Below are positions 14,756 to 19,015 of a stretch of DNA of 22,773 nucleotides, in pieces. The stretch is taken from the UHGV virus genome UHGV-0256221; one strand, 5' to 3'. The translations under genes and the position numbers were made by a program. A model generated the notes under the pieces. That model had not been told where the DNA came from. It did no database searches and worked only from the letters and a program-made list of their open reading frames with translations. Source of the DNA: a virus. Numbering within the stretch: position 1 is the first letter of the stretch; each line of letters starts with the position of its first letter.

Positions 14756-15064
14756 ATGGATAAATTAATCAAACCTACTACCAAAGGTAAACATGATGGT
14801 TCATGTGATTATCTTTGCTCGGACGATGCGCGATTCATCGTTATGCGCGGCGATTATACGGAAGCGGAAATAATTCAGGCTTCTGTGTACCAAGATGTAA
14901 TCGACTCGGATGGCGCGGCTGATTTTGCAAGTAGCGCCCGCTATTACCAGTGCTGGTACAAAGTTAGCCCAGTAGGTGGTCAGGATGGCTATTCAGGCTG
15001 GCATCATCCTCGTGACTCGCCGTGTCGCGGTGCATATTTCGCATCAGTTTTGCAATGGGATTAA
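14756..15064 (+). CDS. Hypothetical nin-region protein
   Basis: 102-aa ORF in the coupled gene string. Confidence 0.4.
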   Translation: MDKLIKPTTKGKHDGSCDYLCSDDARFIVMRGDYTEAEIIQASVYQDVIDSDGAADFASSARYYQCWYKVSPVGGQDGYSGWHHPRDSPCRGAYFASVLQWD

Positions 15065-15077
15065 GGAGGACTAACCC

Positions 15078-15404
15078 ATGACAACTAACAACCACCCGGC
15101 GCACGGTCCTGTATCACTCGATCGCCTGCACCAGATAAGCGAAATACTCAGCAACGCAGCAGCACAAAGCGACGGCGGTAATCTCGGCTACGCAATGGCT
15201 GATGCTGTGAAGGTGATTGATGAAGTGCTGGCGGCGCGCGCTGAAACCGTGAAGCTGCCGGCAGGGTACAACGTCCGACCTGGGCATCCAATTAACGAAT
15301 CAGAGCGCGGCGTAATGATCCCCAAAGATAACGGCCAATGGCTTTCGCGTTTCGACGTTGAGCATGCCCTGCGAGTGGCGGGCGTCAGATTTAAGGAGGA
15401 CTGA
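15078..15404 (+). CDS. Hypothetical nin-region protein
   Basis: 108 aa; AGGAGGA RBS upstream. Confidence 0.45.
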   Translation: MTTNNHPAHGPVSLDRLHQISEILSNAAAQSDGGNLGYAMADAVKVIDEVLAARAETVKLPAGYNVRPGHPINESERGVMIPKDNGQWLSRFDVEHALRVAGVRFKED

Positions 15405-15661
15405 TGGAACCTCAACTGGAATACGCCACGAAACGCATCGTCGAACTGGAAAACCTGCTGCTGGTGGATGTGACCGAAACCGTCTGGCCTGCTGAGGTGG
15501 GAATGGTATATAGCCAGATTGAAAGTGCCGGGGATCTCCCGGCGCATCACCAGCGCCGCCTGAAGCATCACATCAACCGTATGTGGCTGGAGAAAATGCC
15601 GGTACCAGCCATCGTAAACGCCGCCCAGTCACTGGCCACCGCTATGGAGAAATACGCGTGA
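15404..15661 (+). CDS. Hypothetical nin-region protein
   Basis: 85 aa; stop overlaps the GTG start of the methyltransferase-like gene. Confidence 0.45.
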   Translation: MEPQLEYATKRIVELENLLLVDVTETVWPAEVGMVYSQIESAGDLPAHHQRRLKHHINRMWLEKMPVPAIVNAAQSLATAMEKYA

Positions 15662-15816
15662 GAGAAATCATCGTTGATAACTTTGCCGGCGGCGGCGGGG
15701 CGAGCACGGGCATTGAGCTGGCGATCGGTCGTAGTGTGGATATTGCGATTAACCACGACCCGAACGCTGTTGCGATGCACACTACGAACCACCCGGATAC
15801 ACTGCACTACTGGTGA
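15658..15816 (+). CDS. C5-methyltransferase N-terminal segment (motif I), ends at an in-frame stop
   Basis: GTG at 15658; translation (M)REIIVDNFAGGGGASTG...NHPDTLHYW-stop carries the AdoMet motif I; the rest of the enzyme continues in another frame. Confidence 0.5.
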   Translation: MREIIVDNFAGGGGASTGIELAIGRSVDIAINHDPNAVAMHTTNHPDTLHYW

Positions 15817-17374
15817 GACCTTCGAGGCTTTCTGCGGCATGCTATCCGGTGGTATTCCTGCCGGTCATCCGGCGCTGGCGGAGTGCTGCGAGTTCCTGGG
15901 TATTACTGCCGACGGCGAACTGGCGCAGCAACTGGTGGCCGGGCTGGGTTACGCTGTTGATCATCGTGAGCTGCGCGCCTGCGACTTTGGCGCACCGACC
16001 ATCAGGAAGCGTTTCTTCATGGTAATGCGTTGCGATGGTATGCCGGTGACCTGGCCGGACCCGACCCACGGCGACCCGAAATCTCCAGCTGTGCAGAGTG
16101 GAAAGTTGGCGCCATGGCGTACAGCTGCGGAGTGTATCGACTGGACCATTCCGGCACCGTCGATATTCGACCGCAAAAAGCCACTGGCTGAAAATACGCT
16201 CAAACGCATCGCTCGTGGCATCCAGCGGTTTGTGATCGAGAGCGCGTCGCCGTTCATCGTCAAGTGCAACCACACGACGACCAAAGGGAAATACGACTGT
16301 TTCCGTGGGCAGGCGCTGAGAGAGCCTCTGCAGACCATTACGAAAACCCACGGCTACGCGTTAGCCGTTCCACACCTGACAAAGTTCCGTACTGGCGCAA
16401 CCGGGCAGCCCGTTACCGAACCTGTGCCCACTGTCACAGCTGGGACGTCGGTGCGCCCGGGCGGCAATGGTCATGCTCTTGGGTTGGTTGAGGCGGCGAT
16501 CACTCCGTTCCTGGCTGGCAATGGGGGCAGTGAATATCAGGCGAAGCCGCGCCCACTAAATAAACCCGCTCACACTATTCTGAAGCAATCGCGCAGTTGC
16601 CTGGTGGCTCCGGTTATTGCCCGGCAGTTTGGTGCCAGTATCGGCCACCGGGCAGACGAACCGAGCGCAACTATCACCGCGGGCGGTGGCGGTAAATCAC
16701 AGCTGGTGACGCCAACGCTGATTCAGATGGGTTATGGCGAACGTCCAGGGCAAGAGCCGCGTGTGCTGAAACTTGATAGCCCGCTTGGCACGGTCACCGC
16801 TGGCGGTAATAAATTTGCGGTTGCCGCTGCACATCTCATTAAACATTACGGCGGGAATTACCAGGGCGCCGGAGTGGGGATGGATGAGCCGATGCATTCT
16901 GTGACCACCGTCGATCACCATGCTGTGGTTGCTTCTCACCTGGTTAAATTGCGCGGAACCTGCCGGGATGGACAACGCACCGACGCGCCAATGCCGACTG
17001 TCACGGCTGGTGGCCTGCATGTAGGGAACGTTGAAACTCATCTTGCCGTAGATGAGTACGACGAAGAACGCGCGCAACAAACGCTGGCGTTCCTGCGCAA
17101 ATACTGTGGTGAGGATTGTACCGGGTTGGTGGTGATCGATGGCGTGACGTATCGCATTGTTGATATTGGTATGCGCATGTTACAGCCGCGCGAACTGTAC
17201 CGGGCGCAGGGCTTCCCGGACTGGTACATCATCGACCAGGACTACCGGGGCAAGAAGTACGCGAAGGATAAACAGGTTGCCCGCTGCGGTAACGCGGTGC
17301 CACCGCCGTTCGCTGAAGCGCTGGTGCGTGCTAATTTGCCGGAACTATGCCAATCGAAACAAATAGCGGCTTAG
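15674..17374 (+). CDS. DNA (cytosine-5)-methyltransferase-like protein, main body in shifted frame; no canonical PCQ seen
   Basis: 566-aa ORF (TTG start is an over-extension) with motif VIII-like LRACDFGAPTIRKRFF, five P-x-x-T-V-T-A-G-G repeats, C-terminal motif IX/X-like QPRELYRAQGFPDWY and CGNAVPPPFAEAL. Confidence 0.55.
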   Translation: MITLPAAAGRARALSWRSVVVWILRLTTTRTLLRCTLRTTRIHCTTGETFEAFCGMLSGGIPAGHPALAECCEFLGITADGELAQQLVAGLGYAVDHRELRACDFGAPTIRKRFFMVMRCDGMPVTWPDPTHGDPKSPAVQSGKLAPWRTAAECIDWTIPAPSIFDRKKPLAENTLKRIARGIQRFVIESASPFIVKCNHTTTKGKYDCFRGQALREPLQTITKTHGYALAVPHLTKFRTGATGQPVTEPVPTVTAGTSVRPGGNGHALGLVEAAITPFLAGNGGSEYQAKPRPLNKPAHTILKQSRSCLVAPVIARQFGASIGHRADEPSATITAGGGGKSQLVTPTLIQMGYGERPGQEPRVLKLDSPLGTVTAGGNKFAVAAAHLIKHYGGNYQGAGVGMDEPMHSVTTVDHHAVVASHLVKLRGTCRDGQRTDAPMPTVTAGGLHVGNVETHLAVDEYDEERAQQTLAFLRKYCGEDCTGLVVIDGVTYRIVDIGMRMLQPRELYRAQGFPDWYIIDQDYRGKKYAKDKQVARCGNAVPPPFAEALVRANLPELCQSKQIAA

Positions 17375-17435
17375 AGTCTGAGTTTCAGGGCAGGACGTAA
17401 CAAATCCTGCTACTTCAATGACGTAGATTTAAACT

Positions 17436-17444
17436 TGATATAAT
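17436..17444 (+). promoter_or_regulatory. Candidate extended -10 promoter (TGaTATAAT) for the 17474 gene
   Basis: Perfect TATAAT preceded by TG; weak -35; about 30 bp before the RBS. Confidence 0.35.
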
Positions 17445-17473
17445 TGGGCTCCAATCGACAAAGGAGCTATAAA

Positions 17474-17710
17474 ATGCATCACTATATATTTCCACGCAAT
17501 AACGGCATAACACTGATTAAAACTGAGGAATTTATTCCTCAAGGCTCAATTTACGATATAGATGGTGGAGACCATTTGTGTATGCATGTGACGCTTAAAG
17601 ATGGTACTTACGGGTATCTTCTACCTGTAGGAACCGCCTACAATCATCAATGGGTCATTGGACAAATAAACGCTGTTCGCCCAAATCCACTGGCATTTGA
17701 TATCAACTAG
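17474..17710 (+). CDS. Hypothetical small protein (78 aa), stand-alone cassette
   Basis: ATG at 17474 with AAGGAG RBS; AT-rich; own promoter-like element and terminator. Confidence 0.5.
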   Translation: MHHYIFPRNNGITLIKTEEFIPQGSIYDIDGGDHLCMHVTLKDGTYGYLLPVGTAYNHQWVIGQINAVRPNPLAFDIN

Positions 17711-17741
17711 CCAGATATTGAGATGAATATTTGAAAACTAC

Positions 17742-17767
17742 AAAACCGCTTCGGCGGTTTTTCTTTG
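17742..17767 (+). terminator. Intrinsic terminator
   Basis: AAAACCGC-TTCG-GCGGTTTTTCTTTG hairpin with T-run, about 30 bp after the 17710 stop. Confidence 0.6.
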
Positions 17768-17802
17768 TATAATCCTTCTCAAAGCATTGAGGGGGATTCA
17801 TC

Positions 17803-18060
17803 ATGTCTAGCCATAACATCGCAGCAAAATCAAAAGAAGAACAGGACAAGGTGAACGTTGACCTTGCTGCTTCTGGTGTGGCGTACAAAGAACGCCTAAA
17901 CATGCCAGTTATCGCTGAGCAGGTGGCCCGCGAGCAGCCAGAGAATCTTCGCGAATACTTCATGGAGCGCGTTCGTTACTACCGCGAGCAGAGCCTGACG
18001 CTGCCGAAAGCATCCGATTCGCGTTATCTGGATATGGCTGCGCAGAATGAGAAGAAGTAA
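17803..18060 (+). CDS. Hypothetical small protein (85 aa), first of a coupled pair
   Basis: GAGGGGGA RBS; TATAAT about 30 bp upstream; stop overlaps next start (TAATGG). Confidence 0.5.
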
Positions 18061-18314
18061 TGGGCTGCCTCATTGTAAGCGGAATCAAGTTTTACGTTCT
18101 GGCAGAAGGTGACTCATATCCCGATCCGCATAATGATAATCGGTATGTCGGTGCATATGCCGTATTCCCGTTTGAGGGAAAGTGGGTTGCTCAGAAGTAT
18201 TTCAGGGGAGGACGCTGGAGTGATATCACCGAACGCCGATTTAACACTGAAAACGAGGCATTCAACTTCACATACGAATACGCGTTTCTCCCGGAAAACC
18301 GCTACAAATATTAA
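18060..18314 (+). CDS. Hypothetical small protein (84 aa), aromatic-rich
   Basis: Translationally coupled to the upstream gene. Confidence 0.5.
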   Translation: MGCLIVSGIKFYVLAEGDSYPDPHNDNRYVGAYAVFPFEGKWVAQKYFRGGRWSDITERRFNTENEAFNFTYEYAFLPENRYKY

Positions 18315-18336
18315 TCAGTTCAGCTAAAAGCAACAT

Positions 18337-18365
18337 TTGATTTTCCATTATCAGCTGTACATAAT
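18337..18365 (+). promoter_or_regulatory. Candidate sigma70 promoter before the 18416 gene
   Basis: TTGATT, 17 bp, CATAAT; followed by inverted repeat TGTCAG...CTGACA. Confidence 0.3.
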
Positions 18366-18415
18366 GTCAGTGTCAGCCTGAACAACTGACAACTTGATGC
18401 GCCACGGAGAGTACC

Positions 18416-19015
18416 ATGGCGCACGAACTACAACTCATTAAGCAATCATCAGGAATCCTGATCCCCGCTACGCCGGAGACCAGCGATATTCTGCAATCAA
18501 AAATCAAACTCGGCGCCGTGCTGGTAGCCGAATTTCGTCAGGTGAGGAATCCCGCATTCCATCGCCGTTTTTTTGCGCTCCTGAATCTCGGGTTTGAATA
18601 CTGGGAACCTACTGGAGGGGCGATCTCCTCCAACGAGCGCAAACTGGTAACCGGCTACGCCAAATTCCTTGCCTCATTCGCGGGAAGTGAAGCTGCACTC
18701 CTGGATGCAGCTGAGCAATATCTGGAGCGTATCGCTGATAAGCGAGCCGGTAGCATTAGCATCTGCAAATCCTATGATGCTTATCGTGCATGGGTGATCA
18801 TCGAGTCTGGTCACTACGACGCCATTCAGCTTCCCGACGGCACCCTTCGCAAACACCCCCGCAGCATTGCCTTCGCCAACATGGACGAAACCGAGTTCCA
18901 GCAGCTGTACAAAGCCGCGCTTGATGTCCTCTGGCGCTGGATATTGTCAAAAGCGTTCACGGACCAGCGCGAGGCGGAGAACGCCGCTGCGCAGCTCATG
19001 AGCTTCGCGGGGTGA
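18416..19015 (+). CDS. nin-region protein (DUF1367-like, from memory)
   Basis: 199-aa ORF; stop overlaps next start. Confidence 0.45.
   Translation: MAHELQLIKQSSGILIPATPETSDILQSKIKLGAVLVAEFRQVRNPAFHRRFFALLNLGFEYWEPTGGAISSNERKLVTGYAKFLASFAGSEAALLDAAEQYLERIADKRAGSISICKSYDAYRAWVIIESGHYDAIQLPDGTLRKHPRSIAFANMDETEFQQLYKAALDVLWRWILSKAFTDQREAENAAAQLMSFAG

What the first reader, a model, noticed from the sequence alone, without database searches (positions are those of the whole stretch)
15658..17374. C5-methyltransferase-like gene split across two frames with no canonical PCQ catalytic motif
Motif I (FAGGGG) is encoded from a GTG at 15658 in a frame that stops at 15814-15816. The rest of the protein (motif VIII-like ...CDFGAPTIRKRFF, then motif IX/X-like QPRELYRAQGFPDWY and CGNAVPPPF) is in the +1 frame. 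Between them the expected GG-x-PCQ (motif IV) and ENV (motif VI) are not found in any frame; the best-aligned stretch reads GGIPAG ... ECCEF, and motif I to motif VIII is about 50 residues shorter than in M.HhaI-type enzymes (numbers recalled from memory). Explanations: an internal deletion making a pseudogene, a sequencing or assembly error, a programmed frameshift, or a non-catalytic methyltransferase-like DNA-binding protein. The variable region has five P-x-x-T-V-T-A-G-G repeats, suggesting a repeated target-recognition module.
Basis: partly seen in the sequence, partly recalled or inferred. Interest (0 to 1): 0.55.

Follow-up and report, generated by a model that had tools for sequence, protein, structure and literature searches.

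The report
Deletion-killed prophage cytosine methyltransferase gene
This is an ordinary dead gene: a prophage DNA cytosine-methyltransferase lost 272 bases, including its catalytic centre, in one recent deletion, which explains the frame break and the missing motifs.

Summary
A GTG-started frame (15658) encodes motif I and stops at 15814-16. The rest of a C5-methyltransferase (motifs VIII, IX, X) runs in the +1 frame to 17374. No frame encodes motif IV or motif VI.

The cause is a 272-bp deletion. The prophage of E. coli H5/H6 has an intact 662-aa gene (WP_073464677.1). It is identical to the window over 3.86 kb except for these 272 bp. A 5-bp TACTG lies at both ends of the deleted stretch, and one copy remains at 15808-15812.

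The lost codons 52-142 carry the family's motif IV (SPDCRHFS, its version of PCQ) and motif VI (LENVEEF). Since 272 = 3x90+2, the frame also shifts.

The same junction is in contigs from four separate SRA runs, so it is not an assembly error. Close enterobacterial homologues are single-frame proteins of 627-698 aa, and representatives of the wider family run 470-1100 aa. This rules out a programmed frameshift or a natural split gene.

The "repeats" are seven diverged P-x-x-T-[VI]-T modules. Close relatives differ by exactly one module. Whether each module is a separate target-recognition domain is untested, and AlphaFold models of that region have low confidence.

Verdict: a recent pseudogene of an annotated prophage orphan methyltransferase. 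Low interest.

The parts
15658..15816 (+). N-terminal remnant ORF: codons 1-51 of the methyltransferase (motifs I-III region), then an out-of-frame Trp and TGA
   Evidence: The exact 52-aa product (P0007) is called on 3 Logan contigs.
15682..15699 (+). Motif I, FAGGGG (AdoMet-binding loop)
   Evidence: G11, G13 and G14 are invariant in 131 family representatives.
15808..15812 (.). Deletion junction: the single surviving copy of TACTG, a 5-bp microhomology that flanks the 272-bp segment in the intact allele
   Evidence: base-by-base walk against L001 (E. coli H5). The left match ends at 15812, the right match starts at 15808, and the size difference is 272 bp.
15809..17374 (+). C-terminal remnant, +1 frame relative to the N-terminal part: codons T142-A662 plus the TAG stop. 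Identical to the intact allele
15839..17374 (+). Longest ATG-started ORF in the remnant (511 aa, starts at M152). This is how gene callers annotate it in public assemblies. Whether it is translated is unknown
   Evidence: P0001, exact match on Logan contigs. Pfam PF00145 matches only its C-terminal 60 residues.
15977..16024 (+). Motif VIII region, ACDFGAPTIRKRFFMV
   Evidence: Aligned to KASDYGAPTIRTRYFFI of PDB 3g7u. T205, R207 and R209 are invariant.
16325..17108 (+). Variable region with seven tandem 32-48-aa modules, each with a P-x-x-T-[VI]-T core (residues 314, 346, 394, 426, 466, 502, 535 of the intact protein)
   Evidence: Relatives of 627 and 690-698 aa differ by exactly one module. 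No DNA-level repeats. AlphaFold confidence is low here.
17174..17221 (+). Motif IX region, RMLQPRELYRAQGFPD
   Evidence: Aligned to 3g7u, DNMT1 and MET1.
17285..17308 (+). Motif X, CGNAVPPP
   Evidence: N636 is invariant.
15404..15661 (+). Upstream 85-aa nin-region ORF. Its TGA overlaps the methyltransferase GTG start (GTGA), which suggests translational coupling. Included as context only

Best explanation
The locus is a recently inactivated copy of an orphan DNA (cytosine-5) methyltransferase. It sits in the nin region (between replication gene P and antiterminator Q) of a lambdoid prophage.

One 272-bp deletion removed codons 52-142. Its endpoints are two copies of the pentanucleotide TACTG, which fits replication slippage or illegitimate recombination at a microhomology. 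The lost segment encodes the strand-loop carrying the catalytic cysteine (motif IV, SPDCRHFS in this family), the ENV glutamate (motif VI), and several core strands and helices of the AdoMet-dependent fold.

Because 272 is not a multiple of three, the remainder is shifted to the +1 frame. The result is a 52-codon stub and an untethered 3' portion of 521 codons. Neither piece, nor any fusion of them, can form the covalent Cys-C6 intermediate, so the gene cannot methylate DNA.

Shown: the deletion, its exact ends, what it removed, that the junction recurs in assemblies of four separate sequencing runs, and that intact relatives are single-frame. Inferred: the microhomology mechanism, the loss of activity, and that the gene is dispensable (or counter-selected, for example in hosts with 5mC-dependent restriction such as McrBC).
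For: - Intact allele: window 15500-17500 is 100% identical to E. coli H5/H6 in two pieces that span 272 extra bases there. H5 annotates an intact 1989-nt CDS, WP_073464677.1 'DNA cytosine methyltransferase'.
- Junction: the base-level walk gives TACTG at both ends and the deleted peptide ..CESVFDVDP..LAWFSPDCRHFSKAKG..MMLENVEEF..NPLRT.
- Recency: window 15065-18921 matches H5 with no other difference.
- What was lost: phmmer against PDB 3g7u aligns FSPDCRHFS with GGPPCQGFS and MMLENV with FFLAENV. P76, C78, S82, R95, E116, N117 and V118 are invariant in 131 representatives at 50% clustering, and SPDC is near-universal among them. The AlphaFold model of a 94%-identical intact homologue places strands 69-74, 112-117, 127-129, 135-137 and helices 92-107, 119-123 inside the deleted span, with pLDDT above 90 for most of it apart from the motif IV loop (about 63-84). 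Foldseek top hits are C5-methyltransferases.
- Not an artefact: the exact 52-aa and 511-aa products occur in Logan assemblies. Contigs from SRR6504918, SRR33960981, SRR13336902 and SRR34021108 are 100% identical to the window and carry the junction.
- Truly missing: the six-frame scan finds no motif IV or VI.
- Context: int, recT, recE, cI-like repressor, O, P, nin genes, DUF1367, RusA, Q, lysozyme and Rz all read as ORFs with the expected family matches. Within this window, the methyltransferase looks like an isolated lesion in an otherwise intact-looking prophage.
- Precedent: other dead alleles of the same gene exist, as 159-195-aa 3' remnants on more than 130 contigs and as apparently frameshifted (out-of-frame-tailed) 288-405-aa products. 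Truncated prophage 5mC methyltransferase homologues are also reported for M.BatI (PMC8936443).
Against: - No read-level data were inspected. The four Logan contigs could all come from one clone or strain sequenced repeatedly, so they show the junction is reproducible but not that it arose or spread independently.
- The junction was not found in 5,426 complete E. coli genomes, GTDB species representatives, IMG/VR or JGI metagenome contigs, so the allele is rare.
- Loss of activity is inferred from missing motifs and was not measured.
- The 511-codon ORF is intact and could in principle be translated from ATG 15839. A GAGG lies 11 nt upstream. A residual non-catalytic role is therefore not formally excluded.
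Confidence: 0.93

Rival explanations
1. Sequencing or assembly artefact: the real genome has the intact gene and the 272 bp were dropped during assembly.
For: The deleted allele is absent from RefSeq complete E. coli genomes, GTDB representatives, IMG/VR and JGI metagenome contigs. No reads were inspected.
Against: Contigs assembled separately from four SRA runs carry the identical junction and are 100% identical to the window over 1.6-4.5 kb. A 5-bp repeat is, in my judgement, far too short to make an assembler collapse 272 bp of unique sequence.
Confidence: 0.02
2. Programmed frameshift or naturally split enzyme: the two ORFs are joined by ribosomal +1 slippage, or assemble as two subunits as in M.AquI or M.EcoHK31I, to give an active methyltransferase.
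For: Two adjacent ORFs carry complementary sets of methyltransferase motifs, and the 0-frame stop sits right at the junction. Fragment complementation of C5-methyltransferases is known for M.SssI (PMC3404938, listed).
Against: The two pieces together still lack motif IV (catalytic Cys) and motif VI. All 120 listed close homologues and the 131 aligned representatives appear as single polypeptides that contain the segment. The frame break was created by a deletion that the otherwise identical allele lacks. In my reading, UAC-UGG-UGA offers no cognate re-pairing for a +1 shift.
Confidence: 0.01
3. Exaptation: the 511-aa C-terminal fragment (motif VIII, seven modules, motifs IX-X) is expressed as a non-catalytic DNA-binding protein that the prophage retains.
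For: The 1.5-kb ORF is uninterrupted and has an in-frame ATG at 15839. The variable region of C5-methyltransferases is the DNA-recognition part (established knowledge of the family).
Against: The ORF is intact because the deletion is very recent: there are 0 substitutions against the intact allele in 3.86 kb, so no selection can be inferred. Without the strands removed by the deletion the large domain cannot fold as modelled. No diverged lineage with this architecture was found. Other truncations in the clusters are heterogeneous. No promoter-like site was found in 15000-18000.
Confidence: 0.04
4. The polarity is reversed: the window has the ancestral short form, and H5/H6 gained 272 bp as a small mobile element with a 5-bp target-site duplication (TACTG).
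For: The 272-bp difference is bounded by a 5-bp direct repeat in H5, which superficially resembles a target-site duplication.
Against: The 272 bp are in-frame coding sequence for the most conserved part of the enzyme. They are present in every intact homologue down to about 45% identity and contain seven of the invariant residues. Their GC content (57%) matches the gene (58%).
Confidence: 0

Closest known systems
WP_073464677.1, 'DNA cytosine methyltransferase' of the lambdoid prophage in E. coli H5/H6 (NZ_CP010169.1 3347697-3349685)
   Same: This is the same gene. The flanks are identical for 3.86 kb, it occupies the same nin-region position, and codons 1-51 and 142-662 are identical.
   Different: The window copy lacks 272 bp (codons 52-142, covering motifs IV-VI) and is frameshifted. 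The H5 copy is intact.
Multispecific C5-methyltransferases of Bacillus temperate phages (M.SPRI, M.Phi3TI, M.Rho11sI, M.H2I; Trautner et al. 1996 as cited in PMC12707154; PMC8936443)
   Same: Both are orphan enzymes of temperate phages. Both have a long variable region between motifs VIII and IX built of short tandem modules. Here the modules are 32-48 aa, similar to the roughly 40-50-aa TRD size I recall for the Bacillus enzymes, and close relatives differ by whole modules.
   Different: Motif IV is SPDC here, not the PCQ I recall for the Bacillus enzymes. No direct sequence comparison with the Bacillus enzymes was made. Even the shortest family members inspected (472-512 aa) already appear, by eye, to have three to five modules, so the modules may be a structural repeat rather than independent TRDs. 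No specificity data exist for this family as far as my searches went.
M.BatI, orphan prophage 5mC methyltransferase of Bacillus anthracis (PMC8936443)
   Same: It is a prophage-borne orphan C5-methyltransferase that is silent in the lysogen. Related prophages carry truncated, inactivated copies, which led the authors to conclude that the gene is not always needed by the phage.
   Different: It is a different subfamily: small, with unusual motif I and a short TRD. Its inactivation events are unrelated to this one.
PDB 3g7u, putative DNA modification methyltransferase of E. coli O157:H7 prophage CP-933R
   Same: It is the best solved-structure match by sequence (E 1.3e-9) and by fold (Foldseek E 3.6e-11). 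Motifs I, IV, VI, VIII, IX and X all align.
   Different: It is 376 aa with a canonical PPCQ motif IV and a single short variable region. Identity over the Foldseek-aligned region is only about 20%.
Naturally split C5-methyltransferases (M.AquI alpha/beta, M.EcoHK31I; recalled from the literature, not checked here)
   Same: Two adjacent or overlapping ORFs each carry part of the motif set.
   Different: In those enzymes the two polypeptides together hold all ten motifs and are active. Here motifs IV and VI are physically gone.

Membership tests
Functional DNA (cytosine-5) methyltransferase (Pfam PF00145 / TIGR00675) | Motif I, F-x-G-x-G AdoMet-binding loop | tested here: met
   FAGGGG at 15682-15699.
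Functional DNA (cytosine-5) methyltransferase (Pfam PF00145 / TIGR00675) | Motif IV with the catalytic cysteine (P-C-Q, or SPDCxHFS in this subfamily) | tested here: not met
   Absent from all six frames. It lies inside the 272 bp missing relative to the intact allele.
Functional DNA (cytosine-5) methyltransferase (Pfam PF00145 / TIGR00675) | Motif VI, E-N-V | tested here: not met
   No ENV or ENI in any frame. LENVEEF lies in the deleted segment.
Functional DNA (cytosine-5) methyltransferase (Pfam PF00145 / TIGR00675) | Motifs VIII, IX and X | tested here: met
   GAPTIRKRFF, RELYRAQGFPD and GNAVPPP align to 3g7u, DNMT1 and MET1. Pfam matches residues 436-497 of the 511-aa fragment.
Functional DNA (cytosine-5) methyltransferase (Pfam PF00145 / TIGR00675) | All motifs on one uninterrupted polypeptide (or on complementing subunits) | tested here: not met
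   The 0-frame stops at 15814-16 and the remainder is in the +1 frame. The two pieces together lack motifs IV and VI.
Functional DNA (cytosine-5) methyltransferase (Pfam PF00145 / TIGR00675) | 5mC formation in DNA | not testable with these tools
   Needs bisulfite, EM-seq or nanopore methylome data, or an in vitro assay.
SPDC-type phage/prophage C5-methyltransferase family (intact 627-698-aa enterobacterial proteins; 2583 representatives at E<=1e-30) | Common descent with intact members | tested here: met
   Identical to WP_073464677.1 outside the deletion. 82-94% identical relatives occur in Citrobacter, Kluyvera, Enterobacter, Salmonella and Atlantibacter, and members occur in many phages.
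SPDC-type phage/prophage C5-methyltransferase family (intact 627-698-aa enterobacterial proteins; 2583 representatives at E<=1e-30) | SPDC[KRT]H[FH]S motif IV | tested here: not met
   Present in nearly all of the 150 representatives but deleted here.
Multispecific phage C5-methyltransferases (SPR / phi3T / rho11s / H2 type) | Several contiguous target-recognizing domains between motifs VIII and IX | tested here: inconclusive
   There are seven tandem modules with a shared P-x-x-T-[VI]-T..hLV..hL..G pattern, and relatives show whole-module indels. However, even the shortest members inspected have several modules (by eye), and AlphaFold gives pLDDT 25-60 for this region.
Multispecific phage C5-methyltransferases (SPR / phi3T / rho11s / H2 type) | Methylation of several unrelated target sequences, each assignable to one domain | not testable with these tools
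   Needs methylome analysis of an expressed intact allele and of module-deletion derivatives.
Programmed +1 ribosomal frameshift gene (prfB type) | The frame break is conserved in homologues, with a shift-prone site | tested here: not met
   Homologues are single-frame. The break is created by a deletion that the otherwise identical allele lacks.

The most novel reading that the evidence does not exclude
The pseudogene itself is ordinary. The family it belongs to may be an uncharacterised Gram-negative counterpart of the Bacillus-phage multispecific methyltransferases. These are orphan C5-methyltransferases of temperate phages with an unusual SPDC catalytic motif and arrays of several (about 3 to 11) short P-x-x-T-[VI]-T modules. 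Each module, or subsets of them, might confer a separate target specificity. Close relatives gain or lose whole modules (627, 662 and 694 aa), and the gene is inactivated repeatedly in E. coli prophages, perhaps because broad 5mC methylation is penalised by 5mC-dependent restriction (McrBC, McrA, Mrr).
Probability: 0.3. Interest if true: 0.45.

Novelty: already known. Interest (0 to 1): 0.12.

Why it matters
For this window it matters little. It is a correctly diagnosed, freshly made pseudogene of an accessory prophage gene. Its practical use is for annotation: the 52-aa and 511-aa ORFs should be merged and flagged as one disrupted methyltransferase gene, and no 5mC methylation should be attributed to this prophage.

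The case also shows that a "missing PCQ" should be judged against the subfamily's own motif (SPDC here) before a non-catalytic protein is invoked.

The wider family is large: 2583 representative clusters at E<=1e-30, spread across temperate phages of many bacterial genera. I found no publication on its specificity. If its module array encodes several specificities, it would be a useful natural system for studying modular DNA recognition and phage anti-restriction.

Tried and rejected
- Junction searches. An exact 34-nt pattern across the junction gave no hits in GTDB representative genomes, IMG/VR or JGI metagenome contigs. The allele was found only through exact-protein look-up in Logan assemblies.
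- Source of the window. No complete E. coli genome covers 80% or more of it (best 52%), so the source strain is unidentified.
- Structure of the module region. Two AlphaFold runs were made, on a 662-aa intact homologue with 131 sequences and on a 478-aa short member with 79 sequences. Both gave confident catalytic domains but pLDDT 25-60 for the modules, so the module fold is unresolved.
- Link between modules and known structures. phmmer of the last module plus motifs IX-X against PDB aligned only motifs IX-X. The equivalence of the T-[VI]-T-A-G-G core to the conserved Thr-Leu of the M.HhaI TRD therefore rests on my memory only.
- Module typing. Single-linkage clustering of 728 modules put most of them (417 of 728) into two big clusters. 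It shows variable module number but is not informative about shuffling.
- Internal repeats. BLASTP self-comparison of the variable region found nothing significant, and there are no DNA-level repeats.
- Literature. Six searches found no paper on this SPDC multi-module family. Trautner et al. 1996 (PMC450048) is not held.
- P0022 could not be submitted to the representative search, so the 94%-identical P0002 was used instead.
- Considered and rejected: a MITE-like insertion in H5 (the 272 bp are conserved coding sequence), a one-base error, and a +1 frameshift.
Full report
**1. The observation**

- A GTG at 15658 overlaps the TGA of the upstream 85-aa ORF. It opens a frame reading VREIIVDNFAGGGGASTGIELAIGRSVDIAINHDPNAVAMHTTNHPDTLHYW and stops at TGA 15814-15816.
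- The +1 frame carries the rest of a C5-methyltransferase to TAG 17372-17374. It includes ACDFGAPTIRKRFFMV (motif VIII), RMLQPRELYRAQGFPDWY (motif IX) and CGNAVPPPF (motif X).
- A six-frame scan of 15500-17500 finds no ENV in any frame and only chance matches to PCQ-like strings.

**2. What happened**

A megablast of 15500-17500 against 5,426 complete E. coli genomes found two full-length matches, strains H5 and H6. Both are 100% identical but in two pieces that span 2273 bases instead of 2001.

In H5 the region is annotated as one intact 1989-nt CDS, WP_073464677.1 "DNA cytosine methyltransferase". It lies between replication gene P and the DUF1367, RusA and Q genes, which is the nin region of a lambdoid prophage.

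A base-by-base walk places the difference exactly. The window lacks 272 bp. In the intact allele TACTG occurs at both ends of that segment, and the window keeps one copy at 15808-15812. Outside the deletion, window 15065-18921 (3.86 kb) is identical to H5. The deletion is therefore a single, very recent lesion.

The lost sequence encodes residues 52-142: CESVFDVDPIVATAGRPVGLAWFSPDCRHFSKAKGSKPVEKEIRGLAWIVIRWALAVRPRVMMLENVEEFRTWGPLIESADGGLRPNPLRT. Since 272 = 3x90+2, the downstream part is thrown into the +1 frame.

**3. The deleted part is the catalytic core**

- phmmer against PDB aligns FSPDCRHFS with GGPPCQGFS and MMLENV with FFLAENV of the CP-933R prophage methyltransferase 3g7u.
- In an alignment of 131 representatives at 50% clustering, P76, C78, S82, R95, E116, N117 and V118 are invariant. 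SPDC[KRT]H[FH]S is the near-universal form of motif IV.
- An AlphaFold model of a 94%-identical intact homologue has a confident catalytic domain. It places four core strands and two helices inside the deleted span.
- Foldseek returns 3g7u, DNMT1, MET1, M.HaeIII and M.HhaI.

Without the nucleophilic cysteine and the ENV glutamate, neither fragment nor any fusion of them can methylate cytosine. This is an inference from the established C5-methyltransferase mechanism.

**4. Not an artefact, a frameshift gene or a split enzyme**

- The exact 52-aa and 511-aa products are present in the public protein collection.
- The contigs that encode them come from four different SRA runs (SRR6504918, SRR33960981, SRR13336902, SRR34021108). 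All are 100% identical to the window over 1.6-4.5 kb and contain the junction.
- Close homologues (81-94% identity; Citrobacter, Kluyvera, Enterobacter, Atlantibacter, Salmonella, E. coli) are single-frame proteins of 627-698 aa that contain the segment.
- The family is large, with 2583 representatives at E<=1e-30 and lengths of 470-1100 aa. It occurs in many temperate phages, including Klebsiella Kpn_R1, Escherichia Flotzy and Eeyore, Citrobacter phiNP, Pectobacterium ZF40, and Aeromonas, Vibrio, Pseudomonas and Burkholderia phages.
- The reverse polarity, an insertion in H5, is excluded because the 272 bp are the most conserved coding part of the gene.

The allele is rare. The junction is absent from complete E. 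coli genomes, GTDB representatives, IMG/VR and JGI metagenome contigs.

**5. Context**

The window is a mosaic lambdoid prophage carrying integrase, RecT, RecE, a cI-like repressor, O, P, Ead/Ea22, the methyltransferase, DUF1367, RusA, Q, lysozyme and Rz. These all read as ORFs with the expected family matches. The methyltransferase is thus an isolated lesion in an otherwise intact-looking element. This fits a dispensable accessory gene.

Other dead alleles of the same gene are common. There are 159-195-aa 3' remnants on more than 130 contigs, and products of 288-405 aa with out-of-frame tails that look frameshifted. A published parallel is M.BatI, whose homologues are truncated in related prophages (PMC8936443).

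Phage orphan methyltransferases are generally viewed as anti-restriction functions expressed on induction. In addition, 5mC in an RmC context is a target of McrBC (PMC12707154). Counter-selection in Mcr-positive hosts is a plausible reason for recurrent loss, but I did not test it.

**6. The repeats**

The variable region (residues about 306-575; window 16325-17108) contains seven modules of 32-48 aa. Each starts with P-x-x-T-[VI]-T, at residues 314, 346, 394, 426, 466, 502 and 535. Four have the strict ...TAG[GT] form. The modules align to a common pattern..D-E-P-x-x-T-V-T-A-G-G-x-x-x-a-l-V-x-p-x-L-i-k-x-x-G. They are repeats at protein level only.

Close relatives differ by exactly one module. 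The 627-aa form common in E. coli lacks the 35-aa module 3, and the 690-698-aa forms have one extra 32-aa module after module 6. Across the family the number of regex-detected cores ranges from 1 to 11, but the regex undercounts. By eye, the shortest members inspected (472-512 aa) still show three to five modules.

This resembles the tandem target-recognizing domains of Bacillus-phage multispecific methyltransferases (cited in PMC12707154 and PMC8936443). Two things keep the question open:
- The persistence of several modules in the shortest members allows for a structural repeat instead.
- Both AlphaFold runs gave low confidence for this region (pLDDT 25-60).

I found no paper on this family.

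**7. Verdict**

The feature is a recent 272-bp microhomology-flanked deletion in an annotated prophage orphan C5-methyltransferase gene. It is ordinary, and I score it low. The only open and mildly interesting question is a family-level one: whether the module array encodes multiple specificities.

Noticed in passing
window 16325-17108; proteins P0089, P0022, P0044 (alignment A1): Natural length variants of the intact methyltransferase (627, 659-664 and 690-698 aa) differ by exactly one 32-35-aa P-x-x-T-x-T module in register. This suggests module gain and loss within the variable region.
   Followed up: partly
window 15404-15661: The 85-aa ORF just upstream has a stop overlapping the methyltransferase GTG. 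It matches phrog_16025 ('DNA methyltransferase', E 5e-50) and the C-terminal 66 positions of the 345-aa phrog_111 methyltransferase profile (E 1e-9), but has no Pfam hit. In a related E. coli prophage (L002), a 377-aa 'DNA-methyltransferase' and a 90-aa ORF precede the C5 enzyme. It may be a small accessory protein that travels with methyltransferases.
   Followed up: no
proteins P0024, P0030, P0031, P0029 (cluster of WP_073464677.1); E. coli hits H7-H29: 3' remnants of the same methyltransferase gene (159-195-aa ORFs covering the last two modules and motifs IX-X) sit on more than 130 contigs, including complete E. coli chromosomes. Products with out-of-frame tails (P0003, P0004, P0006) also exist and look frameshifted. 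Inactivation of this gene is therefore recurrent.
   Followed up: partly
family-wide (P0156-P0304): Motif IV in this family is SPDC[KRT]H[FH]SKA, with Asp-Cys in place of the canonical Pro-Cys. It appears in nearly all of the 150 representatives. I found no literature mention of it.
   Followed up: partly
window 17803-18060: A DNA polymerase III theta (HolE-like) homologue (phrog_1105, E 2e-40) lies in the nin region downstream of the methyltransferase. It is annotated the same way in E. coli H5.
   Followed up: no
window 17742-17761: A perfect 8-bp-stem hairpin (AAAACCGC-TTCG-GCGGTTTT) is flanked by T-runs on both strands, so it looks like a bidirectional intrinsic terminator. It lies between the 78-aa ORF and the theta homologue.
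   Followed up: no
window 15658-17374 compared with the whole window: The methyltransferase gene has 58% G+C against 51.5% for the window. This fits an imported accessory gene.
   Followed up: no
models m69fdf6d3642e and m906340c727c0: AlphaFold2 models the catalytic domain of intact homologues at pLDDT above 90 but leaves the whole module array at pLDDT 25-60, even in a short (478-aa) family member. The region may fold only on DNA or may be poorly captured by the alignments.
   Followed up: partly
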